Numbered from the stretch's first letter, positions 1 through 12,357 are shown. The stretch: DNA of 13,485 nucleotides from a virus (IMGVR_UViG_2703718857_000001:1-13485), one strand, 5' to 3'. Notes: generated by a model not told the origin, from the letters alone. A program made the numbers and translations.

Positions 1-318
1 ATGAAAAAGATAGCTGCTATATCATTAATTAGTATTTTTATTATGTCTGGTTGTGCTGTGCATAATGATGAGACAAGTATCGGTAAATTTGGTCTTGCAT
101 ATAAAAGTAATATTCAGCGTAAACTCGATAACCAATACTACACCGAAGCCGAAGCTTCTTTAGCCAGGGGCAGAATATCTGGTGCAGAAAATATAGTAAA
201 AAATGATGCAGCCCATTTCTGTGTTACTCAGGGCAAAAAAATGCAGATAGTTGACCTGAAGACAGAAGGTGCAGGATTACATGGCGTCGCTCGTCTGACA
301 TTCAAATGTGGAGAGTGA
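1..318 (+). CDS. Small lipoprotein, probably host-encoded and flanking the prophage
   Basis: ORF begins at window position 1 with ATG. N-terminal hydrophobic signal peptide ending in a lipobox-like MSGC. Lies left of the candidate att core, so likely host DNA. Function unknown. Confidence 0.6.
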   Translation: MKKIAAISLISIFIMSGCAVHNDETSIGKFGLAYKSNIQRKLDNQYYTEAEASLARGRISGAENIVKNDAAHFCVTQGKKMQIVDLKTEGAGLHGVARLTFKCGE

Positions 319-413: not shown

Positions 414-476
414 ATGAAGGAGGATTCTATCGATGTGGTCAATGGAAGACGGTTACCAGAGATAGGGCTTATGCAT

Positions 477-503
477 AAAAAATAAGCCCGTGTAAGGGAG
501 ATT
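477..503. other. attL: Candidate prophage attL core (P2-type 27-bp att core)
   Basis: Sequence AAAAAATAAGCCCGTGTAAGGGAGATT matches my recollection of the P2 attP/attB core. It sits about 80 bp beyond the 3' end of int, as expected for P2-like phages. Identity is recalled, not searched. Confidence 0.6.
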
Positions 504-582
504 TAGGGTGTCACCAGTAGGGGCTTTCAACGGTACAATGCGGGTTTGAGCGGCATAAATTACCACTGAAAGCCCTTAAACG

Positions 583-1596
583 TTACTCTACTGTGGACAC
601 TGTGTGGACACTCTCGACCTCAGTACCACCTCTTAGCGGATTAAGAGAAATGGCGTCCTGAAGGTACTCTGGCGCAAAATGAGCGTAAACCATAGTTTGC
701 TCAATCCGCGTGTGACCTAGTATCCGTTGTAGCGTGATAATACTTCCTCCATTAATCATGAAATGAGTGGCAAAGCTGTGCCTTAGTGCATGTGTAGCTT
801 GCCCCATTGGCAAATCCGGTTTTATTGCTTTCATTGTACGTCTGAAGCGAGGGTAATCAGCATCAGGGAATAAAAAACCTCGTTTGTTATCCGCGATCAT
901 TTTGGCAACAGCCTCTGAGATCGGGACGGTGCGTGGTTTGTTTGTTTTCGTTTTAACAAACGTGACGCGGTTATGGATGATATTTTCTGCTTTCAAACGA
1001 GCTGCTTCTCCCCAACGTGCTCCAGTACTCAGGCAAAGAATCGCAATCTTTTTGTTGTCGCCGTCAAGAGCAGCAAGCAGTAAGGCAATTTCTTCCTGCG
1101 TGAGATAGCCTGTGTCTGGTTTTTCCTCCTTAAGCCTTTTTGTCCCTCTGATAGGGTGCTCACCAAAGAATAACTCCGCTTCAATCAGGGCTGTAAACAT
1201 GCCGCTAATACATGTTAAATCACGATTGATACTCGAAGGTTTAATACCCTGACTTCTTCGGGTGGCGCAGTACTGGCTGATAAGCGATTTCGTAATTTGA
1301 AATGCGCATGGGTCATTCGTTATTTTTGTGAAGATTTCAATTTTCCCAAGATTAGATTTCCCATGCTCTTCGTGTTTACCCTTTAAATCCCACCAGATCT
1401 GTGTCAGCTCCGACAGACGTCGCTTGTCTGTTGGTTTTGATAGCCATTCTTTATTGTGGTGGTTGTACAACGTGTATTTCTCGAAAGCGACAGCTTCGCT
1501 TTTCTTATCAAACTTCCTACGGATGCGTTTTCCATTACGTCCAGTAGGGCGGATGTCCACTTCATATCGACCATCATCGAGTTTTTTGATTGCCAT
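583..1596 (-). CDS. int: Tyrosine recombinase / phage integrase (P2 Int-like, 337 aa)
   Basis: 337-aa ORF. Tyrosine recombinase box II HxLRHSFATH and catalytic Tyr context MVYAHF. N-terminus MAIKKLDDGRYEVDIRP is P2-Int-like. RBS GGAGGG upstream of ATG on minus strand. Position at the prophage end next to the att core. Confidence 0.93.
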   Translation of the reverse strand: MAIKKLDDGRYEVDIRPTGRNGKRIRRKFDKKSEAVAFEKYTLYNHHNKEWLSKPTDKRRLSELTQIWWDLKGKHEEHGKSNLGKIEIFTKITNDPCAFQITKSLISQYCATRRSQGIKPSSINRDLTCISGMFTALIEAELFFGEHPIRGTKRLKEEKPDTGYLTQEEIALLLAALDGDNKKIAILCLSTGARWGEAARLKAENIIHNRVTFVKTKTNKPRTVPISEAVAKMIADNKRGFLFPDADYPRFRRTMKAIKPDLPMGQATHALRHSFATHFMINGGSIITLQRILGHTRIEQTMVYAHFAPEYLQDAISLNPLRGGTEVESVHTVSTVE

Positions 1597-1650
1597 CAGA
1601 AAACCCTCCGAGTGGTGTGTTTTTTTGCGACTACTAATCGCTTTTTTCGT

Positions 1651-1671
1651 GGTGGCTGAAATTTAGCCACC
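1651..1671. repeat. Perfect 7-bp inverted repeat GGTGGCT-N7-AGCCACC between C and int
   Basis: Read directly. Lies in the C-int intergenic region (1597..1711). No T-run follows on the minus strand, so it is not a terminator. Candidate protein-binding or RNA structure. Confidence 0.4.
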
Positions 1672-1711
1672 AATAGTAGGCACTTGTGATGAATATATTC
1701 ACGATGAATTG

Positions 1712-2011
1712 TTAACCAGTCTTTTGACCGGAGTGGGGCGACGTTGTTTCGTTTTGCCCAAAGTGTGCGAGAGCGGGCGCAATTTGCCCGGACTCAGGAG
1801 CGATCTGATTGGTCATGAACCATAAAGTGTATTTGGTGAATTGTGGGGTCTGCAGGATGTTCATCATGACATCTGTTGGAGGTGTTGAACGACCACTTTC
1901 ATAGTAACTCAGCGTGCCATACGGAACCCCTGTTAAATCAGCAAGTTGTTGTCTGCTCAAATACTCTGATTTTCGCATTAAGACTATCTTCTCGCTTATC
2001 GTGTTTGACAT
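1712..2011 (-). CDS. C: Immunity repressor (P2 C-like, 99 aa)
   Basis: 99-aa ORF directly upstream of int and co-oriented with it, divergent from cox. Size and position match P2 C. The sequence looks P2-C-like from memory. Confidence 0.85.
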   Translation of the reverse strand: MSNTISEKIVLMRKSEYLSRQQLADLTGVPYGTLSYYESGRSTPPTDVMMNILQTPQFTKYTLWFMTNQIAPESGQIAPALAHFGQNETTSPHSGQKTG

Positions 2012-2060
2012 GGTGTTTAGATCTCAATAGTATTTAGTTTAGATGTAGATTGTTTAGTGC
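2004..2060 (+). promoter_or_regulatory. Early promoter (Pe-like) with C-repressor operator direct repeats
   Basis: TTGACA at 2004..2009, 18-nt spacer, TAGTAT at 2028..2033, oriented toward cox. Exact 8-bp direct repeat GTTTAGAT at 2015..2022 and 2037..2044 (22 bp apart) flanks the -10. Additional GTAGAT / GTTTAGT copies follow. Confidence 0.55.
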
Positions 2061-2083
2061 TTGGATGTGGGCACTAAAAGGCA

Positions 2084-2089
2084 TTATAA
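2084..2089 (-). promoter_or_regulatory. Candidate -10 (TATAAT on minus strand) of a leftward repressor promoter (Pc-like), convergent with Pe
   Basis: Perfect TATAAT on the minus strand (complement of ATTATA at 2084..2089). The -35 is weak (TTGCGT-like, suboptimal spacing). Placement rests on the P2 face-to-face promoter arrangement. Confidence 0.35.
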
Positions 2090-2125
2090 GACATTAAACG
2101 CAATTCATGAGGGCTAGAGGACGAC

Positions 2126-2401
2126 ATGAGCAAGCAAGTAACACTCATGACTGATGCGATTCCTTATCAGGAGTTCGCAAAACTAATAGGAAAATCGACA
2201 GGAGCGGTTCGTCGGATGATCGATAAAGGAAAGCTGCCTGTAATTGATATGACCGATCCACAATCAGCTTCAGGTCGTGCAGGTGAATATTGGGTATACC
2301 TTCCGGCATGGAATAACGGACTAAAACTGGCTTATGAAAGCCGCCCTAAAGAGATTCGTGACGGCTGGTTGATGTGGTTAGGTCTCGGTGAACCACGTTA
2401 A
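2126..2401 (+). CDS. cox: Excisionase / early-promoter repressor (P2 Cox-like, 91 aa)
   Basis: 91-aa ORF, first gene of the rightward early operon, divergent from C. Size and position match P2 Cox. Confidence 0.85.
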   Translation: MSKQVTLMTDAIPYQEFAKLIGKSTGAVRRMIDKGKLPVIDMTDPQSASGRAGEYWVYLPAWNNGLKLAYESRPKEIRDGWLMWLGLGEPR

Positions 2402-2411
2402 GGAGAACCGT

Positions 2412-2582
2412 ATGAATGAGCCTCGTTGTATTGCTCAGTTACTGCGTAACGAAAGCCCCAGGGCGATTGACTTCACCATCACCCACGGTAAGGGGCGTAA
2501 GGGAATCATTATCCGCACCAAAAAACAGAGTCCGTTAAAAAAGGCTCTGACCTTTCTGAAAAGCCGGAGGGTATGGAAATGA
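2412..2582 (+). CDS. Small hypothetical early protein (P2 orf78-like)
   Basis: RBS AAGGAG at 2400..2405 followed by ATG at 2412. The longer ORF from 2388 overlaps the cox 3' end and lacks an RBS. Basic small protein. Its stop overlaps the start of B. Confidence 0.5.
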   Translation: MNEPRCIAQLLRNESPRAIDFTITHGKGRKGIIIRTKKQSPLKKALTFLKSRRVWK

Positions 2583-3079
2583 CAGTGATGACGCTCAATC
2601 TCGTTGAAAAACAGCCAGCAGCTATGCGCCGGATAATTGGCAAGCATCTTGCCGTCCCTCGCTGGCAGGATACATGTGATTATTATAATCAGATGATGGA
2701 GCGCGAACGGCTAACGGTTTGCTTTCATGCACAGTTAAAACAGCGTCACGCAACGATGCGTTTTGAAGAAATGAACGACGTCGAACGTGAACGGCTGGTT
2801 TGTGCAATTGATGAATTGCGTGGGGCATTCTCAAAACGCCGTCAGGTCGGTGCAAGTGAGTATGCATATATTAGTTTTTTAACAGTCAGCCAGCGACGTA
2901 CTTTATTTATGCACGCACGACTGACAGAAAAAGAATTCAACCAGCCGTACTGGCGAATTAATGAAGAATCATGTTACTGGCGTGATGCTTTATTCCGTGC
3001 ATTACGTGAATTATTCAGTCTGTTTGAGTATGCACCGACAATTCTGACGTCGGTAAAACCAGAGCAATATCTGCATTAA
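2579..3079 (+). CDS. B: Replication protein B (P2 gpB-like, helicase-loader-type function)
   Basis: 166-aa ORF if started at ATG 2579 (GGAGG at 2564..2568); 168 aa from 2573. Position between cox and A matches P2 B. Confidence 0.8.
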   Translation: MTVMTLNLVEKQPAAMRRIIGKHLAVPRWQDTCDYYNQMMERERLTVCFHAQLKQRHATMRFEEMNDVERERLVCAIDELRGAFSKRRQVGASEYAYISFLTVSQRRTLFMHARLTEKEFNQPYWRINEESCYWRDALFRALRELFSLFEYAPTILTSVKPEQYLH

Positions 3080-3142
3080 ATAATTAACCAGAGTTTTTAA
3101 CGCACTTAATCGTGCGGGGCTTCTTTTTGCCTGGAGAAAGTC

Positions 3143-3367
3143 ATGCATACAGTTTCTGAAAATCAGTGCGGTAAATACGCATTACTGCTGCAACAGGCCA
3201 GAACCGAAGCACAGGCCGACGCTGCGACGCGCTTTTCTTCTCATCTTGACGCCATGATTCGCCATATCACAAAGGCGGAGTTATCCCGCGTGGAGATAGT
3301 CGAGCTGCTCAGTCAGGAGTCGGAAAAATTTCACAATATCGGATTGTCTCGCGGGGAGGTGCTTTGA
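3143..3367 (+). CDS. Hypothetical early protein (P2 orf80-like)
   Basis: 74-aa ORF in early operon, start preceded by GGAGAAAG. Stop overlaps the next start (ATGA). Confidence 0.55.
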
Positions 3368-3669
3368 TGTCCTGTTCTCATTCAGTTGTATTACTGAATA
3401 ACGCCTTAAAAATCGCCGTTATGGAAAATGGTGATTTATCTCTTATTCAACTTTGTCTTGATAAAGAAAAACGCGACATAACTGAATCTGTTATCGCGAT
3501 TTATCAGAATGAATTAAACCTCCTGTCTGATGTGGTCAATTTACTTGTTAAACGCGCTGTATTCCACAAGCAAATTTCCTCCGTGGATGAACTGACAAAA
3601 TTAACGACAGAAATCGTCAGCTATTGCGCTGATGAATTTAAGAAACTGAACGACAAAAGGAACTGGTAA
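3364..3669 (+). CDS. Hypothetical early protein (P2 orf81-like)
   Basis: 101-aa ORF, translationally coupled on both sides. AT-richer codon usage than its neighbours. Confidence 0.55.
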
Positions 3670-3893
3670 TGCCGGACAACGTAGATTTCATTCAGGAACA
3701 ACAGGCTGAATTACTGGAGCGCCAGATTAACGCGGCAAGGGTAAAACATTGCGGTGTTTCTGCGCTGGTTTGCGAAGAGTGTGACGTGCCAATACCTGCT
3801 GCCCGTCGTGCGGCTTATCCGTCAGCCACGCGTTGTGTTTCCTGTCAGTCAGTCTTTGAAGCAAAAAACAAACATTACCGGAGAACGGCATGA
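3669..3893 (+). CDS. DksA/TraR-family C4 zinc-finger protein (P2 orf82-like)
   Basis: CxxC-x17-CxxC motif (CEEC...CVSC) typical of DksA/TraR zinc fingers. 74 aa. Coupled to flanking ORFs. Confidence 0.7.
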   Translation: MPDNVDFIQEQQAELLERQINAARVKHCGVSALVCEECDVPIPAARRAAYPSATRCVSCQSVFEAKNKHYRRTA

Positions 3894-4165
3894 GTATTCG
3901 TATTGAAATTGGCGAACGTTATGTCGTTACCAGTGACAGCTTTCAGTTTATTCTCCACGAGAAAAAGAGAGCGGAAAGCGGTAAAAACGCCGGTCAGGAA
4001 TGGCTGTCGGTGGTTGGTTATTACCCGAAATTAAGCCAGCTCGTTTCCGGCATGATGCATCACGATATTCTGACCGGAAGCGCAAAGTCTTTTGCTGATT
4101 TAAACGCGCAGGTTGAGCAACTCAGCAAGCGTTGTTCAGAGGCTTTTGGCTCATATGGCCGTTAA
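3890..4165 (+). CDS. Hypothetical early protein (P2 orf83-like)
   Basis: 91-aa ORF immediately upstream of A, overlapping the A start. Confidence 0.55.
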   Translation: MSIRIEIGERYVVTSDSFQFILHEKKRAESGKNAGQEWLSVVGYYPKLSQLVSGMMHHDILTGSAKSFADLNAQVEQLSKRCSEAFGSYGR

Positions 4166-6278
4166 AGCCTCCGGGCGTTTTGTCCCTCCATCAGCATTTG
4201 CCGCAGGCACCGGTAAGGCGTTTACCGGTGCTTATGCATGGAACGCGCCACGCGAGGCTGTCGGGCGCGAAAGACCCCTTACACGTGACGAGATGCGTCA
4301 GGTGCAAGGTGTTTTATCCACGATTAACCGCCTGCCTTACTTTTTGCGCTCGCTGTTTACTTCACGCTATGACTACATCCGGCGCAATAAAAGCCCGGTG
4401 CACGGGTTTTATTTCCTCACATCCACTTTTCAGCGTCGTTTATGGCCGCGCATTGAGCGCGTGAATCAGCGCCATGAAATGAACACCGACGCGTCGTTGC
4501 TGTTTCTGGCAGAGCGTGACCATTATGCGCGTCTGCCGGGGATGAATGACAAGGAACTGAAAAAGTTTGCCGCCCGTATCTCATCGCAGCTTTTCATGAT
4601 GTATGAGGAACTCTGCGATGCATGGGTTGATGCACATGGCGAGAAAGAATCGCTGTTTACGGATGAGGCTCAGGCGCATCTGTATGGTCATGTTGCTGGC
4701 GCTGCACGAGCTTTCAATATTTCCCCTCTCTACTGGAAAAAATACCGTAAAGGACAGATGACCACGAGGCAGGCATATTCTGCCATTGCCCGTCTGTTTA
4801 ACGATGAGTGGTGGACTCATCAGCTTAAAGGTCAGCGTATGCGCTGGCATGAGGCGTTACTGATTGCTGTCGGGGAGGTGAATAAAGACCGTTCTCCTTA
4901 TGCCAGTAAACATGCCATTCGTGATGTGCGTGCGCGCCGCCAGGCAAATCTGGAATTTCTTAAATCGTGTGACCTTGAAAACAGGGAAACCGGCGAGCGC
5001 ATCGACCTTATCAGTAAGGTGATGGGAAGTATTTCTAATCCTGAAATTCGCCGGATGGAGCTGATGAACACCATTGCCGGTATTGAGCGTTACGCCGCCG
5101 CAGAGGGTGATGTGGGGATGTTTATCACGCTGACCGCGCCGTCAAAGTATCACCCGACACGTCAGGTCGGAAAAGGCGAAAGTAAAACCGTCCAGCTAAA
5201 TCACGGCTGGAACGATGAGGCATTTAATCCAAAGGATGCGCAGCGTTATCTCTGCCGCATCTGGAGCCTGATGCGCACGGCATTCAAGGATAATGATTTA
5301 CAGGTCTACGGTTTGCGTGTCGTCGAGCCACACCACGACGGAACGCCGCACTGGCATATGATGCTTTTTTGTAATCCACGTCAGCGTAACCAGATTATCG
5401 AAACCATGCGTCGCTACGCGCTCAAAGAGGATGGCGACGAAAGAGGAGCCGAGCGAAACCGTTTTCAGGCGAAACACCTTAACCGGGGCGGTGCTGCGGG
5501 GTATATCGCGAAATACATTTCAAAAAATATCGACGGCTATGCACTGGATGGTCAGCTCGATAACGATACCGGCAGACCTCTGAAAGATACTGCCGCGGCT
5601 GTTACTGCATGGGCGTCAACGTGGCGCATCCCGCAATTTAAAACGGTTGGTCTGCCGACAATGGGGGCTTACCGTGAACTACGCAAATTGCCTCGCGGCG
5701 TCAGCATTGCTGATGAGTTTGACGAACGCGTCGAGGCTGCACGCGCTGCCGCAGACAGTGGCGATTTTGCGTTGTATATCAGTGCGCAGGGTGGGGCAAA
5801 TGTTCCGCGCGATTGCCAGACTGTCAGAGTCGCCCGTAGCCCGTCGGATGAAGTTAACGAGTACGAGGAAGAAGTCGAGAGAGTGGTCGGCATTTACGCG
5901 CCGCATCTCGGCGCGCGTCATATTCATATCACCAGAACGACGGACTGGCGCATTGTTCCGAAAGTTCCGGTCGTGGAGCCTTTAACTTTAAAAAGCGGCA
6001 TCGCCGCGCCTCGGAGTCCTGTCAATAACTGTGGAAAGCTCACCGGTGGTGATACTTCGTTACCGGCTCCCACACCTTCTGAGCACGCCGCAGCAGTGCT
6101 TAATCTGGTAGATGACGGTGTTATCGAATGGAATGACCCGGAGGTCTTGAAAGTGCTTAATCTGGCATTGAAAATAGAAGCATCACGTAAATGTACAAAC
6201 AAAGGAGACACACGAGCAGGCATAGTTGGCGAGTCAACCGCGATTTTCAATGTACAGGATGCTGATAATCAACAATGA
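4155..6278 (+). CDS. A: Rolling-circle replication initiator / endonuclease (P2 gpA-like, HUH superfamily)
   Basis: Start likely ATG 4155 (MAVKASGRF...); the track ORF from 4113 begins at a TTG inside orf83. HUH-like motif PHWHMML and twin-tyrosine motif GYIAKYISK, typical of phiX174-A/P2-A type Rep proteins. 707 aa. Confidence 0.9.
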   Translation: MAVKASGRFVPPSAFAAGTGKAFTGAYAWNAPREAVGRERPLTRDEMRQVQGVLSTINRLPYFLRSLFTSRYDYIRRNKSPVHGFYFLTSTFQRRLWPRIERVNQRHEMNTDASLLFLAERDHYARLPGMNDKELKKFAARISSQLFMMYEELCDAWVDAHGEKESLFTDEAQAHLYGHVAGAARAFNISPLYWKKYRKGQMTTRQAYSAIARLFNDEWWTHQLKGQRMRWHEALLIAVGEVNKDRSPYASKHAIRDVRARRQANLEFLKSCDLENRETGERIDLISKVMGSISNPEIRRMELMNTIAGIERYAAAEGDVGMFITLTAPSKYHPTRQVGKGESKTVQLNHGWNDEAFNPKDAQRYLCRIWSLMRTAFKDNDLQVYGLRVVEPHHDGTPHWHMMLFCNPRQRNQIIETMRRYALKEDGDERGAERNRFQAKHLNRGGAAGYIAKYISKNIDGYALDGQLDNDTGRPLKDTAAAVTAWASTWRIPQFKTVGLPTMGAYRELRKLPRGVSIADEFDERVEAARAAADSGDFALYISAQGGANVPRDCQTVRVARSPSDEVNEYEEEVERVVGIYAPHLGARHIHITRTTDWRIVPKVPVVEPLTLKSGIAAPRSPVNNCGKLTGGDTSLPAPTPSEHAAAVLNLVDDGVIEWNDPEVLKVLNLALKIEASRKCTNKGDTRAGIVGESTAIFNVQDADNQQ

Positions 6279-6399
6279 TAGCTATTGTGACTATGCTAAC
6301 CATATGAATCTATTGTGTGATTATGAGTAATGACTTTTTCTAATATTTGATTTTTAATGTAGTAACTTAGCTAATTTTAAAATTTGTAAAAGGATGTTT

Positions 6400-7647
6400 A
6401 TGTCGATTTATCAAGGTGGTAACAAGTTAAATGAGGATGATTTTCGTTCTCACGTTTATTCCTTGTGTCAATTAGATAATGTTGGCGTTCTGTTAGGTGC
6501 TGGTGCTTCTGTCGGTTGTGGTGGGAAAACGATGAAAGATGTATGGAAATCGTTTAAGCAAAACTACCCTGAGCTTTTGGGAGCACTTATTGATAAATAT
6601 CTTCTGGTTTCGCAAATTGATTCTGATAACAATTTGGTCAATGTTGAACTTTTGATAGATGAAGCAACTAAATTTCTTTCTGTAGCTAAAACTAGACGAT
6701 GTGAAGATGAAGAGGAGGAATTCAGGAAGATATTAAGTTCATTATATAAAGAGGTTACGAAGGCTGCATTATTAACAGGAGAACAGTTTAGAGAGAAAAA
6801 TCAGGGTAAAAAAGATGCGTTTAAATATCACAAAGAGTTAATTTCAAAATTAATTTCAAATAGACAGCCCGGTCAGTCGGCTCCGGCAATTTTTACAACA
6901 AATTATGATTTGGCCTTAGAGTGGGCTGCAGAAGATTTAGGAATACAGTTGTTTAATGGTTTTTCTGGGCTACATACACGGCAGTTTTATCCCCAGAATT
7001 TTGATTTGGCTTTCAGAAATGTAAATGCGAAGGGCGAAGCAAGATTCGGACATTATCATGCGTATCTCTATAAATTACATGGCTCACTTACGTGGTATCA
7101 AAATGATAGCTTGACTGTTAACGAAGTTAGTGCATCTCAAGCATATGATGAATATATTAATGACATAATCAATAAAGATGACTTTTATCGCGGTCAACAT
7201 TTGATTTATCCAGGGGCGAATAAATATAGCCATACAATCGGCTTCGTTTATGGAGAGATGTTTAGACGTTTTGGGGAGTTTATTTCGAAGCCTCAAACAG
7301 CGTTGTTCATAAATGGGTTTGGTTTCGGTGATTATCATATAAATAGAATAATATTAGGCGCGTTACTGAATCCATCTTTCCATGTTGTTATATATTATCC
7401 TGAATTGAAAGAAGCAATTACCAAAGTAAGTAAGGGTGGCGGTTCGGAAGCTGAGAAAGCTATTGTTACTTTAAAAAATATGGCTTTCAATCAAGTAACT
7501 GTAGTTGGGGGAGGAAGCAAGGCATATTTTAATAGTTTCGTAGAACATCTACCATACCCTGTGCTCTTTCCACGAGATAATATTGTTGATGAGTTGGTTG
7601 AAGCAATTGCTAATCTTTCTAAAGGAGAAGGTAATGTCCCTTTTTAA
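6400..7647 (+). CDS. SIR2-like (sirtuin-fold) protein, predicted NAD+-consuming effector of a SIR2-HerA-type defense pair
   Basis: Motifs seen: GAGAS (about 6496), TTNYD (about 6894), KLHGS with candidate catalytic His (about 7074), GFGFGD (about 7320). No CxxC zinc module, as in defense-type SIR2 domains. Start 6400 preferred over 6394 on RBS spacing (AAAGGA at 6388..6393). Low GC. Confidence 0.85.
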   Translation: MSIYQGGNKLNEDDFRSHVYSLCQLDNVGVLLGAGASVGCGGKTMKDVWKSFKQNYPELLGALIDKYLLVSQIDSDNNLVNVELLIDEATKFLSVAKTRRCEDEEEEFRKILSSLYKEVTKAALLTGEQFREKNQGKKDAFKYHKELISKLISNRQPGQSAPAIFTTNYDLALEWAAEDLGIQLFNGFSGLHTRQFYPQNFDLAFRNVNAKGEARFGHYHAYLYKLHGSLTWYQNDSLTVNEVSASQAYDEYINDIINKDDFYRGQHLIYPGANKYSHTIGFVYGEMFRRFGEFISKPQTALFINGFGFGDYHINRIILGALLNPSFHVVIYYPELKEAITKVSKGGGSEAEKAIVTLKNMAFNQVTVVGGGSKAYFNSFVEHLPYPVLFPRDNIVDELVEAIANLSKGEGNVPF

Positions 7648-9466
7648 ACTTACTGAAATCTCGGCTATTGGATACGTTGTAGGATTAGAAGGGGAAAGAA
7701 TTAGGATAAACCTGCATGAGGGGTTGCAAGGCAGATTAGCATCGCATAGAAAGGGGGTGAGCTCAGTAACGCAACCAGGAGATCTTATTGGGTTCGATGC
7801 AGGTAATATATTAGTTGTCGCAAGAGTGACAGATATGGCATTTGTTGAAGCGGATAAAGCGCATAAGGCAAATGTAGGCACATCTGATTTAGCTGATATA
7901 CCTCTAAGACAAATTATCGCCTATGCAATTGGCTTTGTGAAAAGGGAGTTAAATGGTTATGTTTTTATATCAGAAGATTGGCGCTTACCTGCATTGGGTT
8001 CTTCTGCTGTTCCTTTGACTTCAGATTTTTTGAACATCATTTATAGTATTGATAAAGAAGAACTCCCAAAAGCGGTTGAATTAGGTGTGGATTCTCGAAC
8101 TAAAACCGTTAAGATATTTGCAAGTGTTGATAAATTATTGTCGCGACACTTAGCCGTTCTTGGTAGTACAGGATATGGTAAATCAAATTTCAATGCTTTG
8201 TTAACGAGGAAGGTTTCTGAAAAATACCCTAACTCAAGAATAGTTATTTTTGACATAAATGGTGAATACGCGCAAGCTTTTACAGGTATTCCAAATGTAA
8301 AGCACACTATTCTAGGGGAATCCCCAAATGTTGATAGTTTGGAAAAAAAGCAGCAAAAGGGTGAGCTATATAGTGAAGAGTATTATTGTTATAAAAAGAT
8401 ACCATATCAGGCATTAGGTTTTGCTGGGTTAATTAAATTATTAAGACCAAGTGATAAAACACAATTGCCCGCATTAAGAAATGCATTAAGTGCAATTAAT
8501 CGGACTCATTTTAAAAGCCGTAATATTTACTTGGAAAAAGATGATGGTGAAACTTTTCTTTTGTATGATGATTGTCGTGACACAAATCAAAGTAAATTGG
8601 CTGAGTGGTTGGATTTATTAAGGCGTAGACGTCTTAAAAGAACGAATGTATGGCCACCGTTTAAAAGTTTAGCGACTTTGGTTGCTGAATTTGGATGTGT
8701 AGCTGCTGACCGTTCTAATGGAAGTAAACGTGACGCGTTTGGTTTTAGTAACGTGTTGCCATTGGTAAAAATCATACAACAACTTGCAGAGGATATAAGA
8801 TTTAAATCTATTGTTAATTTAAATGGAGGGGGTGAGCTAGCAGATGGTGGAACGCATTGGGATAAAGCTATGAGTGATGAAGTTGATTACTTCTTTGGTA
8901 AGGAAAAAGGACAAGAAAATGATTGGAATGTTCATATAGTTAATATGAAAAATTTGGCACAAGATCATGCTCCAATGTTACTTAGTGCATTGTTGGAGAT
9001 GTTTGCTGAGATACTATTTAGACGTGGGCAGGAACGTTCGTATCCTACGGTACTTTTGTTGGAAGAAGCGCATCATTACCTGCGTGACCCTTATGCTGAA
9101 ATTGACTCACAGATTAAAGCATATGAACGACTTGCTAAAGAAGGTAGGAAATTCAAATGCTCTTTAATTGTCAGTACTCAGCGACCCTCAGAGCTTTCTC
9201 CTACTGTTTTGGCAATGTGTTCAAACTGGTTTTCGTTACGTTTGACTAATGAAAGAGATTTACAGGCTCTCAGATATGCAATGGAAAGCGGTAATGAACA
9301 AATCTTAAAACAAATATCAGGTTTACCAAGAGGTGATGCTGTTGCATTTGGTTCTGCATTTAATTTGCCTGTAAGAATTTCAATTAATCAAGCAAGGCCA
9401 GGGCCAAAATCTTCAGATGCTGTTTTTTCTGAAGAATGGGCTAATTGTACAGAATTACGTTGTTAA
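7634..9466 (+). CDS. HerA/FtsK-like P-loop ATPase (DUF87-type), partner of the SIR2-like protein
   Basis: Walker A GSTGYGKS (about 8162..8185). Walker B hhhhEEAH as VLLLEEAHH (about 9058..9084). STQRPSEL sensor-like motif. Start ATG 7634 has strong RBS AAGGAG at 7622..7627 and overlaps the SIR2 stop (7645..7647). 610 aa. Low GC. Confidence 0.85.
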   Translation: MSLFKLTEISAIGYVVGLEGERIRINLHEGLQGRLASHRKGVSSVTQPGDLIGFDAGNILVVARVTDMAFVEADKAHKANVGTSDLADIPLRQIIAYAIGFVKRELNGYVFISEDWRLPALGSSAVPLTSDFLNIIYSIDKEELPKAVELGVDSRTKTVKIFASVDKLLSRHLAVLGSTGYGKSNFNALLTRKVSEKYPNSRIVIFDINGEYAQAFTGIPNVKHTILGESPNVDSLEKKQQKGELYSEEYYCYKKIPYQALGFAGLIKLLRPSDKTQLPALRNALSAINRTHFKSRNIYLEKDDGETFLLYDDCRDTNQSKLAEWLDLLRRRRLKRTNVWPPFKSLATLVAEFGCVAADRSNGSKRDAFGFSNVLPLVKIIQQLAEDIRFKSIVNLNGGGELADGGTHWDKAMSDEVDYFFGKEKGQENDWNVHIVNMKNLAQDHAPMLLSALLEMFAEILFRRGQERSYPTVLLLEEAHHYLRDPYAEIDSQIKAYERLAKEGRKFKCSLIVSTQRPSELSPTVLAMCSNWFSLRLTNERDLQALRYAMESGNEQILKQISGLPRGDAVAFGSAFNLPVRISINQARPGPKSSDAVFSEEWANCTELRC

Positions 9467-9623
9467 TTACCTGATGTACATGGCTAGTGCAAGTTGGTAG
9501 CGCATGTCTATATGCATTTATTTGCATGTGTTTTATTGAGTGAGCGCACAAGCTTGATGACCCGACAGGTATGTATTTAGACTGAATTTACACCTGCATT
9601 AAAACCGCCCCACGAAGCGGGCG

Positions 9624-9642
9624 GGCGAGGCGGGGAAAGCAC
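9624..9642. other. cos: cos cohesive-end sequence (P2-type 19-nt)
   Basis: GGCGAGGCGGGGAAAGCAC matches my recollection of the P2 cohesive end. It lies in the expected position between the cargo slot and Q, within a GC-rich region with short direct repeats (GCGGTGGTG at 9652 and 9748). Confidence 0.65.
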
Positions 9643-9784
9643 TGCGCGCTGGCGGTGGTGCTGATTTTATTTTTTCAGCGTCTGAGCGCGTCGTGGCGGC
9701 GTTTAGATTTTGCGCCGGGGCGTTGCTGTGTCTGCGGGCTGTTTTGTGCGGTGGTGAGCGTGTGAGGGCGTGATGACTGGGTGT

Positions 9785-9806
9785 AAAAAAGCCGCCCGCA
9801 GGCGGC
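9785..9806 (-). terminator. Rho-independent terminator downstream of Q (minus strand)
   Basis: On the minus strand: GCCGCC-TGCG-GGCGGC hairpin followed by TTTTTT, immediately 3' of the Q stop (9812..9814). Confidence 0.7.
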
Positions 9807-9811
9807 GATGT

Positions 9812-10846
9812 TCAGCCGTTGTCAGTGTCCAGTGAGTAGTTTTTAAAGCGGATGACCTCCTGACCGAGCCAGCCGTTTATCTCGCGGATCCTGTCCTGTA
9901 ACGGGATAAGCTCATTGCGGACAAAGACCTTTGCCACTTTCTCAATATCACCCAGCGACCCGACGTTCTCCGGCTTGCCGCCCATCAACTGAAAGGGGAT
10001 GCGGTGCGCGTCCAGCAGGTCAGCGGCGCTGGCTTTTTTGATATTAAAAAAATCGTCCTTCGTTGCCACTTCACTGAGCGGGATAATTTTAATGCCGTCG
10101 GCTTTTCCCTGCGGGGCATAGAGAAACAGATTTTTAAAGTTGTTGCGGCCTTTCGACTTGACCATGTTTTCGCGAAGCATTTCGATATCGTTGCGATCCT
10201 GCACGGCATCGGTAACGTACATGATGTATCCGGCATGAGCGCCATTTTCGTAATACTTGCGGCGGAACAGCGTGGCCGACTCATTCAGCCAGGCAGAGTT
10301 AAGGGCGCTGAGATATTCCGGCAGGCCGTACAGCTCCTGATTAATATCCGGCTCCAGCAGGTGAAACACGGAGCCGGGCGCGAAAGGTGTCGGCTCATGG
10401 AAGGACGGCACCCACCAGTAAACATCCTCTTCCACGCCACGGCGGGTATATTTTGCCGGTGAGGTTTCCAGTCTGATGACCTTACCGGTGGTGCTGTAAC
10501 GCTTTTCCAGAAACGCATTACCGAACACCAGAAAATCCAGCACAAAGCGGCTGAAATCCTGCTGGGAAAGCCACGGATGCGGAATAAACGTTGAAGCCAG
10601 AATATTGCGTTTAACGTAAATCGGCGAGCTGTGATGCACGGCAGCACGCAGGCTTTTTGCCAGACCGGTAAAGCTGACCGGCGGCTCATACCATCTGCCG
10701 TTACTGATGCATTCGACGTAATCCAGAATGTCACGGCGGTCGAGCACCGGCACCGGCTCACCAAAGGTGAATGCCTCCATTTTCGGGGCGCTGGCAGTCA
10801 TTTTTTTTGCCGCAGGTTGCGGTGTTTTCCCTTTTTTCTTGCTCAT
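9812..10846 (-). CDS. Q: Portal protein (P2 gpQ-like, 344 aa)
   Basis: 344-aa ORF adjacent to cos, co-oriented with and coupled to P (ATGA overlap at 10844..10848). Size and position match P2 Q. Confidence 0.9.
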   Translation of the reverse strand: MSKKKGKTPQPAAKKMTASAPKMEAFTFGEPVPVLDRRDILDYVECISNGRWYEPPVSFTGLAKSLRAAVHHSSPIYVKRNILASTFIPHPWLSQQDFSRFVLDFLVFGNAFLEKRYSTTGKVIRLETSPAKYTRRGVEEDVYWWVPSFHEPTPFAPGSVFHLLEPDINQELYGLPEYLSALNSAWLNESATLFRRKYYENGAHAGYIMYVTDAVQDRNDIEMLRENMVKSKGRNNFKNLFLYAPQGKADGIKIIPLSEVATKDDFFNIKKASAADLLDAHRIPFQLMGGKPENVGSLGDIEKVAKVFVRNELIPLQDRIREINGWLGQEVIRFKNYSLDTDNG

Positions 10847-12303
10847 CAGTAAAACTCCAGAATGGTGGATGTCAGCGGGGTGCTGATACCGGCGGTGAGT
10901 GGCTCATTTAACAGGGCGTGCATGGTCGCCCAGGCGAGGTCGGCGTGGCTGGCTTCCTCGCTGCGGCTGGCCTCATAGGTGGCGCTGCGTCCGCTGCTGG
11001 TCATGGTCTTGCGGATAGCCATAAACGAGCTGGTGATGTCGGTGGCGCTGACGTCATATTCCAGACAGCCACGACGGATAACGTCTTTTGCCTTGAGCAC
11101 CATTGCGGTTTTCATTTCCGGTGTGTAGCGGATATCGCGCGCGGCGGGATAGAACGAGCGCACGAGCTGGAACACGCCGACACCGAGGCCGGTGGCATCA
11201 ATACCGATGTATTCGACGTTGTATTTTTCGGTGAGTTTGCGGATGGATTCAGCCTGGGTGGCAAAGTCCATGCCTTTCCACTGGTGACGCTCAAGTATTC
11301 TGAATTTGCCACCGGCCACCACCGGCGGTGCCAGCACCACGCATCCGGCGCTGTCGCCACGGTGTGACGGGTCGTAACCAATCCATACCGGGCGGGAGCC
11401 GAACGGATTGGCGGCAAACGGTGCATAGTCTTCCCATTCTTCCAGCGTGTCGACCATGCAGCGTTGCAGCTCCTCGAACGGGAACACCGATGCCTTGTCG
11501 TCAACAAATTCACACATGAACAGGTTTTTAAAATCGTCGGCGCTGTTTTCGCGTTTGAGCTGCTCAATGTCGAACAGCGTGCAGCCGCCTTTCAGGGCGT
11601 CCTCAATGGTGACAATCTGCCGCCACTGGCCGTCCGCACAGAGAAGCCCACCGGCAAGGGCGTTATGACTGACGTCGATTTCCACACGTTCGGCGGCGCT
11701 GGCGCGTCCCCGGTTAAACAGTTCACCCGACCAGAACGGGTAGGCGTCGTGCGCCAGCGTGGACGGGGTGGAGAAATAGGTCGAGCGCAGGTGGCTCTGT
11801 GAGGCCATACCGGATGCCACCTTACGCAGTACCTGAAAATTCGGGATCCAGAAAATCTCATCGACGTACAGGTCGCCGTTATGGCTCTGTGCGGTGTTGG
11901 AGTTGGTGCCGAGAAAAATCAGTTTTGCGCCGTTATTACCCAGGACAATCGGGTCACCGGTCAGGTCAACGTCAACCAGCCGGGCAAAGGCGATGATGTA
12001 TTCGCGGAACACATACGCCTGCGTTTTACTGGCCGACAGAAAAATCTGGTTATGACCGGTTTTCAGGGCGCGCAGCAGCGCCTCGCGGGAAAAATAAAAC
12101 GTCGCGCCAATCTGGCGGGATTTCAGGATATCGCGGATGCGGTGCTCAAGCCCGGCGCGATAAATGCCACGCTTTACCTTTACCCTGGCCCCGAAAGCGA
12201 ACCCATTCGCGCTGCCGCCGTGAAAAAACTGGAAGCGTATATCACGGCACAGCACCGGCTGGGGCGCGACATCCGACTGTCTGCCATTTATGCCGCTTTG
12301 CAT
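10846..12303 (-). CDS. P: Terminase large (ATPase) subunit, P2 gpP-like; probably 5'-truncated, with the first ~45 codons of this ORF not genuine P sequence
   Basis: Terminase-type deviant Walker A-like motif KSRQIGAT (compare T4 gp17 SRQLGKT, lambda gpA KSARVGYS). 485-aa ORF versus ~590 aa recalled for P2 P. Its 5' end (about 12160..12303) is antisense to a protein-like plus-strand reading frame. Confidence 0.75.
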   Translation of the reverse strand: MQSGINGRQSDVAPQPVLCRDIRFQFFHGGSANGFAFGARVKVKRGIYRAGLEHRIRDILKSRQIGATFYFSREALLRALKTGHNQIFLSASKTQAYVFREYIIAFARLVDVDLTGDPIVLGNNGAKLIFLGTNSNTAQSHNGDLYVDEIFWIPNFQVLRKVASGMASQSHLRSTYFSTPSTLAHDAYPFWSGELFNRGRASAAERVEIDVSHNALAGGLLCADGQWRQIVTIEDALKGGCTLFDIEQLKRENSADDFKNLFMCEFVDDKASVFPFEELQRCMVDTLEEWEDYAPFAANPFGSRPVWIGYDPSHRGDSAGCVVLAPPVVAGGKFRILERHQWKGMDFATQAESIRKLTEKYNVEYIGIDATGLGVGVFQLVRSFYPAARDIRYTPEMKTAMVLKAKDVIRRGCLEYDVSATDITSSFMAIRKTMTSSGRSATYEASRSEEASHADLAWATMHALLNEPLTAGISTPLTSTILEFY

Positions 12304-12357
12304 GTGGAAGGCGTGCAGCGTGTCGAACTGGCTGCACCGCTGGCCGCTCTTATGTAG
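12181..12357 (+). pseudogene. 3' fragment of a phage structural gene (baseplate J-like C-terminus suspected), lacking its 5' part
   Basis: Protein-like frame ...YPGPESEPIRAAAVKKLEAYITAQHRLGRDIRLSAIYAALHVEGVQRVELAAPLAALM*. It has no own start or RBS, and upstream in frame it runs into the antisense of P. Family assignment from memory only. Confidence 0.4.

What the first reader, a model, noticed from the sequence alone, without database searches (positions are those of the whole stretch)
6400..9466. SIR2-like NADase plus HerA-like ATPase operon in the prophage cargo slot (candidate anti-phage system)
Two overlapping, co-oriented genes sit exactly where P2 carries tin/old. Gene 1 has the sirtuin-fold NAD-binding motifs (GAGAS, TTNYD, KLHGS, GFGFGD) but no zinc-binding CxxC module, as expected for NAD+-degrading defense SIR2 domains rather than deacetylases. 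Gene 2 has HerA/FtsK-type Walker A (GSTGYGKS), Walker B (LLLEEAHH) and an STQRPS motif. This pairing is the described SIR2-HerA defense architecture, thought to act by NAD+ depletion and abortive infection. What could be new is the specific variant: I cannot tell whether these proteins are close to characterised members or a diverged subtype.
Basis: partly seen in the sequence, partly recalled or inferred. Interest (0 to 1): 0.85.

Follow-up and report, generated by a model that had tools for sequence, protein, structure and literature searches.

The report
Known SIR2-HerA (Nezha) defence operon
The two genes are, residue for residue, the E. coli SIR2-HerA ("Nezha") anti-phage system whose structure and activity are already published, sitting in the already described defence hotspot of a P2-like prophage, so the finding is correct but not new.

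Summary
Window 6400-7647 (+) encodes a 415-aa SIR2-like protein and 7634-9466 (+) a 610-aa HerA-like ATPase. The genes overlap by 14 nt.

The interpretation also holds: PADLOC SIR2 scores 1e-189 and PADLOC HerA 2e-277, and NCBIfam SIR2_antiphage is above its cut-off.

It is the characterised member. Both proteins are 100% identical over their full length to PDB chains 8J4U_A/M, which also occur in 8SU9, 8SUB, 8SUW, 8SXX, 8UAE and 8UAF. They correspond to RefSeq WP_021577683.1 / WP_021577682.1. This is the E. coli "Nezha" system studied by Tang 2023, Shen 2023 and Liao 2024.

The location is also known. The operon lies between gpA and cos/gpQ of a P2-like prophage, and Rousset 2022 lists SIR2|DUF87 as system 14 of that hotspot.

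Two side observations: the carrier prophage is defective, with about 19 kb of structural genes deleted, and two of eight related loci carry different deletions that also start in gene P.

Novelty: already known. Interest: low.

The parts
6400..7647 (+). sir2: 415-aa SIR2-like NADase (WP_021577683.1; PDB 8J4U chain A). Asn168 lies in TTNYD and His227 in KLHGS.
7634..9466 (+). herA: 610-aa HerA-type ATPase/helicase (WP_021577682.1; PDB 8J4U chain M). Walker A is GSTGYGKS 177-184 and Walker B is LLLEEAHH 474-481. It overlaps sir2 by 14 nt.
6279..6399 (+). AT-rich intergenic region upstream of sir2. It presumably holds the native promoter, but no convincing sigma-70 consensus was found. The RBS AAAGGA is at 6388-6393.
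   Evidence: the promoter scan is no better than shuffles
6151..9594 (.). Whole non-P2 cargo segment of the hotspot (36.6% G+C). It is bounded by the break in P2 homology inside gene A and by the cos-proximal sequence. The left boundary is identical (P2 position 30029) in 8 other SIR2-HerA loci and in prophage 720R8, which carries different cargo; the right boundary also falls next to cos in all of them, at locus 9225 in the 8 loci and at window 9609 in 720R8.
4155..6278 (+). Left flank: P2 replication gene A, 707 aa. The last 43 aa are not P2-like. RefSeq marks the gene as missing its C-terminus.
9595..9642 (.). Right flank: P2 cos region (cosR/cosL junction as in a prophage).
9812..10846 (-). 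Right flank: portal gene Q.

Best explanation
This is the E. coli SIR2-HerA (Nezha) abortive-infection system, carried as lysogenic-conversion cargo in the gpA-cos-gpQ hotspot of a P2-like prophage integrated next to yegR.

Mechanism, taken from work on these same sequences. Twelve SIR2 subunits and six HerA subunits assemble into a complex of about 1 MDa. Assembly switches on the SIR2 NADase and nuclease activities and the HerA ATPase and helicase activities. Physiological ATP keeps NADase, helicase and nuclease masked. When ATP falls during phage replication, the complex hydrolyses NAD+ to ADP-ribose and nicotinamide. The infected cell stops growing before phage progeny are made.

What is shown here: sequence identity, operon anatomy and genomic position. 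What comes from the literature: complex assembly, the enzyme activities, NAD+ depletion and phage protection. What is inferred: that the copy in this window is expressed from its own promoter in the lysogen.
For: - Identity. There is full-length 100% identity to PDB 8J4U_A (415/415) and 8J4U_M (610/610). The same sequences occur in 8SU9, 8SUB, 8SUW, 8SXX, 8UAE and 8UAF. The SIR2 sequence has 84 chains in 7 entries, i.e. 12 per entry.
- Accessions. 100%-identical DNA in NZ_CM149595 is annotated WP_021577683.1 and WP_021577682.1. Liao 2024 and Zhang 2026 give these accessions for the E. coli system of Tang 2023 and Shen 2023.
- Profile matches. PADLOC, NCBIfam and Pfam all hit.
- Activities and ATP gating of Nezha. 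PMC13434337; PMC11472057 reports ATP-inhibited nuclease in EcSIR2-HerA.
- NAD+ depletion and an abortive-infection phenotype for SIR2-HerA in E. coli. bioRxiv 2021.12.14.472415 and 2024.02.11.579819.
- Catalytic residues. Asn168 and His227 lie in the conserved TTNYD and KLHGS motifs. N168A and H227A abolish defence in the V. cholerae homologue.
- Location. The hotspot position is shown.
Against: Nothing here contradicts the identification. The remaining uncertainties are these.
- No promoter or terminator could be assigned to the operon, so expression of this particular copy is not shown.
- The HerA protein scores 710 bits against NCBIfam HerA_antiphage, below that model's 800-bit naming cut-off. 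This is why RefSeq calls it only 'ATP-binding protein'.
- The phage-derived trigger of Nezha is unresolved in the literature. It is also unresolved whether NAD+ depletion alone, or also the nuclease and helicase activities, account for protection.
- The two primary Mol Cell papers could not be read here, so their content is cited second-hand.
Confidence: 0.97

Rival explanations
1. A diverged SIR2-HerA subtype (for example E. coli types I-III of Zhang 2026, or the ~73%-identical second allele) with different triggers or activities.
For: E. coli does carry several SIR2-HerA lineages. A second allele at ~73% nucleotide identity occurs in 26 complete genomes. The Rousset hotspot representative is 76% identical in HerA over its first 399 aa.
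Against: The window proteins are 100% identical to the Nezha structures. Types I-III share only ~13-22% identity with Nezha.
Confidence: 0.01
2. The genes are intact but silent relics in a decaying prophage and give no protection in this strain.
For: The carrier prophage has lost about 19 kb of structural genes. No clear promoter was found.
Against: Both ORFs are full length and identical to the active proteins. The same allele is conserved at >=99.5% in 20 complete genomes, and the exact protein sequence is seen on 605 (SIR2) and 399 (HerA) contigs. Published clones with native promoters were active. Cargo genes of P2-like prophages are expressed in lysogens, as tin and old are.
Confidence: 0.04
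3. A housekeeping sirtuin deacetylase paired with a DNA-repair HerA helicase, unrelated to defence.
For: Both domains have housekeeping relatives. There are weak NCBIfam hits to archaeal repair HerA.
Against: There is no Zn-binding CxxC module. The best profile matches are the defence-specific models, by more than 100 orders of magnitude. The genes sit in a low-GC cargo segment in a prophage defence hotspot. The NADase and defence function is published for the identical sequence.
Confidence: 0.01

Closest known systems
E. coli SIR2-HerA / Nezha (WP_021577683.1 + WP_021577682.1; PDB 8J4U, 8SU9, 8SUB, 8SUW, 8SXX, 8UAE, 8UAF; Gao 2020, Garb 2022, Tang 2023, Shen 2023)
   Same: Everything testable matches. 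Both proteins are 100% identical over their full length, the gene order and the 14-nt overlap are the same, and the DNA is 100% identical to annotated RefSeq loci.
   Different: Nothing in the two genes. Only the state of the carrier prophage differs: this copy has internal deletions not seen in 5,426 complete E. coli genomes.
P2 hotspot system 14, 'SIR2 | DUF87 = SIR2 + HerA (Gao et al., 2020)', Rousset et al. 2022, Table S5
   Same: Same slot between gpA and gpQ next to cos, and same two-gene architecture.
   Different: The representative HerA printed in that table is a sister allele, 76% identical over the first 399 aa. It probably corresponds to the ~73% nucleotide-identity group found in 26 complete genomes.
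P2 tin / old (cargo of the reference phage)
   Same: Same locus and the same role as lysogenic-conversion phage-exclusion genes.
   Different: The proteins are unrelated, they are on the opposite strand, and they work differently (Old is an ATPase/nuclease; Tin blocks T-even phages).
SIR2-HerA of Paenibacillus sp. 453MF and Staphylococcus aureus; E. coli types I-III; V. cholerae Nezha
   Same: The same SIR2 NADase plus HerA ATPase pairing, with NAD+-depleting abortive infection.
   Different: - Paenibacillus shares only 28% and 23% identity and has a SIR2 tetradecamer interface.
- Types I-III share 13-22% identity. Type III uses a HerA nickase and is triggered by the phage SSB Gp2.5 and by Gp5.9.

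Membership tests
SIR2-HerA (Nezha) anti-phage system | A SIR2-family protein of the defence (NADase) type with the conserved Asn and His catalytic residues | tested here: met
   Pfam SIR2_2 4e-10. PADLOC SIR2 PDLC02186 1e-189. NCBIfam NF042942 SIR2_antiphage 507 bits against a cut-off of 500. N168 and H227 lie in TTNYD and KLHGS. Identical to 8J4U_A.
SIR2-HerA (Nezha) anti-phage system | A HerA/FtsK-type ATPase with Walker A and Walker B motifs | tested here: met
   Pfam DUF87 2e-20. PADLOC HerA PDLC02185 2e-277. Motifs located. Identical to 8J4U_M.
SIR2-HerA (Nezha) anti-phage system | HerA reaches the NCBIfam HerA_antiphage (NF042943) equivalog cut-off | tested here: not met
   710.3 bits against a cut-off of 800. 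This is a naming threshold rather than a biological criterion, and the structurally characterised protein itself is this sequence.
SIR2-HerA (Nezha) anti-phage system | The two genes are adjacent and co-oriented in one operon | tested here: met
   14-nt overlap on the same strand. The same arrangement is seen in 8 of 8 other contigs.
SIR2-HerA (Nezha) anti-phage system | Assembly into a 12 SIR2 : 6 HerA complex | not testable with these tools
   Solved for the identical sequences. The SIR2 sequence has 84 chains in 7 entries and the HerA sequence 33 chains in 6 entries. The stoichiometry is stated in PMC11559045.
SIR2-HerA (Nezha) anti-phage system | Phage protection with NAD+ depletion and an abortive-infection phenotype | not testable with these tools
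   Published for E. coli SIR2-HerA. Not tested for this copy.
P2-like prophage gpA-gpQ defence hotspot | Variable cargo lies between replication gene A and cos/portal gene Q of a P2-like element | tested here: met
   Alignment to P2 NC_001895. The hotspot is defined in PMC9122126, and SIR2|DUF87 is listed there with 188 occurrences.
Sirtuin protein deacetylases | Zn-binding Cys4 (two CxxC) module | tested here: not met
   Three Cys in total and no CxxC.

The most novel reading that the evidence does not exclude
The genes themselves hold nothing new. The most novel reading left open concerns the carrier.

Among nine SIR2-HerA-bearing P2 prophages examined (the window plus eight loci), three carry different internal deletions. 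All three start inside terminase gene P. All three keep int through A, the defence operon, cos and Q.

This could mean one of two things. The defence module may be retained by selection while the phage is being domesticated. Alternatively, Nezha may be costly to its own prophage's lytic cycle, so that defective carriers are favoured.
Probability: 0.1. Interest if true: 0.3.

Novelty: already known. Interest (0 to 1): 0.07.

Why it matters
It matters little as a discovery. This is the reference allele of a defence system that already has cryo-EM structures, biochemistry, phage-challenge data and known phage counter-measures (the NAD+ reconstitution pathways). Its residence in the P2 hotspot is catalogued.

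The practical value is annotation. The HerA partner is labelled only 'ATP-binding protein' in RefSeq because it falls below the NCBIfam cut-off. The window also gives the native genomic context of the much-studied Nezha proteins.

Tried and rejected
- Structure prediction and fold search were not run, because experimental structures exist for the identical sequences.
- The large homology searches (search for homologous proteins, the search of protein representatives) were not run, because identity to a characterised system settled the question.
- The promoter and terminator scan of 6100-9850 gave no more promoter-like sites than shuffles (11 against 11.3). No convincing site lies in the 6279-6399 spacer, so the operon's promoter is unassigned.
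- Rfam found nothing in the window at gathering thresholds.
- DNA searches of 50,697 deposited phage genomes found neither the operon nor its left junction. tblastn with HerA found only distant partial hits, such as terminase-like ATPases. This allele is therefore known from prophages in bacterial genomes only.
- Shen 2023 (PMC11418745) and Gao 2020 (PMC7985843) are not held. Their content is cited through later papers.
- I considered that the 12162 and 12346 junctions might be an assembly artefact. The microhomologies are only about 4 and 8-13 nt, and the fragments are colinear with P2. This favours real deletions, but it cannot be proved from one sequence.

Full report
**Observation.**
The window holds two long co-oriented ORFs at the stated place. 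One runs 6394/6400-7647 and the other 7583/7634-9466, both on the + strand. The sequence around the starts shows AAAGGA 6 nt before ATG 6400 and AAAGGAGAAGG before ATG 7634. These starts give proteins of 415 and 610 aa and a 14-nt overlap.

- SIR2: GAGAS (aa 33-37), TTNYD (166-170), KLHGS (225-229) and GFGFGD (306-311).
- HerA: GSTGYGKS (177-184), LLLEEAHH (474-481) and STQRPS (514-519).
- The SIR2 protein has three cysteines and no CxxC.

The two genes lie in a low-GC segment. It has 36.6% G+C over 6151-9594, against 47.9% to the left and 56.2% to the right.

**Family assignment.**

| Library | SIR2 protein | HerA protein |
|---|---|---|
| Pfam | SIR2_2, 4e-10 | DUF87 "Helicase HerA central domain", 2e-20 |
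| PADLOC | SIR2 PDLC02186, 1e-189, end to end | HerA PDLC02185, 2e-277, end to end |
| NCBIfam | SIR2_antiphage, 507 bits (cut-off 500) | HerA_antiphage, 710 bits (cut-off 800) |

HerA_antiphage is the top NCBIfam hit for the HerA protein but falls below its cut-off. This explains why RefSeq labels the gene only "ATP-binding protein".

**Identity with a characterised system.**
The SIR2 protein is identical at all 415 positions to chain 8J4U_A. The same sequence occurs in 8SU9, 8SUB, 8SUW, 8SXX, 8UAE and 8UAF, with 84 chains in 7 entries, which is 12 per entry. The HerA protein is identical at all 610 positions to 8J4U_M.

The operon DNA with its flanks (6280-9520) is 100% identical to loci in complete E. 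coli genomes. There the genes are annotated WP_021577683.1 and WP_021577682.1. These are the accessions that Liao et al. 2024 give for "EcSIR2-HerA" (PMC11472057). Zhang et al. 2026 give WP_021577683.1 for the E. coli Sir2 protein previously reported by Tang et al. 2023 and Shen et al. 2023 (PMC13434337; references). Zhang et al. also name PDB 8J4U as Nezha. The locus is therefore the reference allele of Nezha, not a variant of it.

**Genomic setting.**
Aligned to phage P2 (NC_001895), the window breaks down as follows.

| Window | Matches | Content |
|---|---|---|
| 476-6150 | P2 24355-30029 (97.9%) | attP core, int, C, cox, orf78, B, orf80-83, most of A |
| 6151-9594 | no P2 match | cargo segment with SIR2-HerA |
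| 9595-9642 | P2 33546-33593 | cosR |
| 9624-12162 | P2 1-2537 | cos, Q, part of P |

Window 1-318 is yegR. The operon therefore replaces the end of A, orf91, tin and old.

Unlike tin and old, which are on the minus strand of P2, the operon runs in the same direction as A.

Rousset et al. 2022 defined this gpA-gpQ interval as a defence hotspot (PMC9122126). Their Table S5 lists "SIR2 | DUF87 - SIR2 + HerA (Gao et al., 2020)" as system 14 with 188 occurrences. The HerA printed there is a sister allele, 76% identical over its first 399 aa.

Eight of eight other contigs that carry the exact SIR2 protein show the same neighbourhood. They have the same left boundary at P2 position 30029, and P2 homology resumes at the same point just before cos (locus 9225 = P2 position 1). 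Prophage 720R8, which carries unrelated cargo, breaks at the same left position and at window 9609 on the right, next to cos.

**Distribution.**
- 20 of 5,426 complete E. coli genomes carry this allele at >=99.5% nucleotide identity.
- 26 more carry an allele at about 73% identity.
- All copies are chromosomal.
- The exact SIR2 sequence is seen on 605 contigs of the large protein collection, and the exact HerA sequence on 399.
- None of 50,697 deposited phage genomes carries it.

**Mechanism.**
The mechanism comes from the literature on these same sequences and was not tested here.
- SIR2 and HerA form a supramolecular complex of 12 SIR2 and 6 HerA subunits. The PDB chain counts agree.
[quoted passage not shown] - ATP falls during infection of Nezha-carrying cells. 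This is proposed to release the activities, leading to NAD+ collapse and abortive infection.
- ATP-inhibited nuclease activity was also seen for EcSIR2-HerA by an independent group.
- NAD+ depletion and an abortive-infection growth phenotype were shown for SIR2-HerA in E. coli MG1655.
- Phages can counter the system by rebuilding NAD+.
- In the V. cholerae homologue, N168A and H227A abolish defence. Asn168 and His227 in the window protein lie in TTNYD and KLHGS.

The phage-derived trigger of Nezha is still unresolved in the literature. So is the relative weight of NAD+ depletion against DNA-directed activities.

I infer that this copy is expressed in the lysogen from a promoter within 6151-6399. 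I could not locate that promoter, because the consensus scan was no better than shuffles.

**Rivals.**
- A diverged subtype is excluded by the identity result. E. coli types I-III are only 13-22% identical to Nezha.
- A housekeeping sirtuin plus repair HerA is excluded by three things: the absent zinc module, the defence-specific profile matches and the published biochemistry.
- A silent relic remains a small possibility, because the carrier prophage is defective. Against it, the ORFs are intact and the allele is highly conserved.

**Side observations.**
- The prophage in the window is defective.
  - After P2 position 2537, inside terminase gene P, comes a 188-nt piece of baseplate gene J (P2 11939-12126). 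The end of T, then U and D follow (P2 22127 onward).
  - Two colinear deletions of about 9.4 and 10 kb have therefore removed the capsid, lysis and most tail genes.
  - The junctions share only about 4 and 8-13 nt of microhomology.
  - No complete E. coli genome in the collection spans these junctions.
- Two of the eight related loci carry other deletions that also begin in P. L004 joins P2 2627 to 18220, and L011 joins P2 2118 to 23191.
- Gene A is 707 aa here, against 761 aa in P2, and has a 43-aa non-P2 tail. RefSeq flags it as lacking its C-terminus.
- Rfam found no known RNA family in the window.

**Verdict.**
The novelty class is "already known": identical proteins have been solved, assayed and named, and the prophage hotspot location is catalogued. 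Interest is low. The only mildly open thread is the repeated but different decay of the carrier prophages around a retained defence operon.

Noticed in passing
window 12159-12346 and flanks (junctions near 12162 and 12334-12346): The carrier P2-like prophage is defective. Terminase gene P is cut at P2 position 2537 and joined to a 188-nt fragment of gene J (P2 11939-12126). That fragment is joined to P2 22127 onward (end of T, then U and D). About 19 kb of capsid, lysis and tail genes are missing. The junctions have only short microhomology. No complete E. coli genome in the collection contains these junctions.
   Followed up: partly
L004 11848-11853 and L011 11342-11344: Two of eight other SIR2-HerA-bearing P2 prophages carry different internal deletions that also begin inside gene P. 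L004 joins P2 2627 to 18220 and L011 joins P2 2118 to 23191. Both keep int through A, the defence operon, cos and Q. With the window, that makes three independent decay events among nine loci.
   Followed up: partly
window 4155-6278 (boundary at 6150): Homology to P2 stops inside replication gene A, 290 nt before its stop and after the ori nick site. The window's gpA is 707 aa with a 43-aa unrelated C-terminal tail, and RefSeq marks it as a pseudogene 'missing C-terminus'. The same break point (P2 30029) is used in 8 other SIR2-HerA loci and in prophage 720R8, which has different cargo and a 759-aa gpA. The C-terminus of gpA therefore behaves as part of the variable hotspot.
   Followed up: partly
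window 7634-9466: The structurally characterised HerA scores 710 bits against NCBIfam NF042943 HerA_antiphage, below that model's 800-bit cut-off. RefSeq therefore names it only 'ATP-binding protein', which is an annotation gap for a reference protein.
   Followed up: no
window 6282-6325: A short direct repeat, CTATTGTG(A) ... CTATTGTGTGA, lies just downstream of the gpA stop in the AT-rich spacer before sir2. It could be an operator or promoter element or it could be chance. I read it by eye and did not test it.
   Followed up: no
E. coli genomes H65-H81 (e.g. NZ_CP100987 3183341-3186383): A second SIR2-HerA allele group at about 73% nucleotide identity occurs in 26 complete E. coli genomes. 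In one of them (NZ_CP142710) it is interrupted by IS903B. It probably corresponds to the representative printed in Rousset's P2 hotspot table.
   Followed up: no
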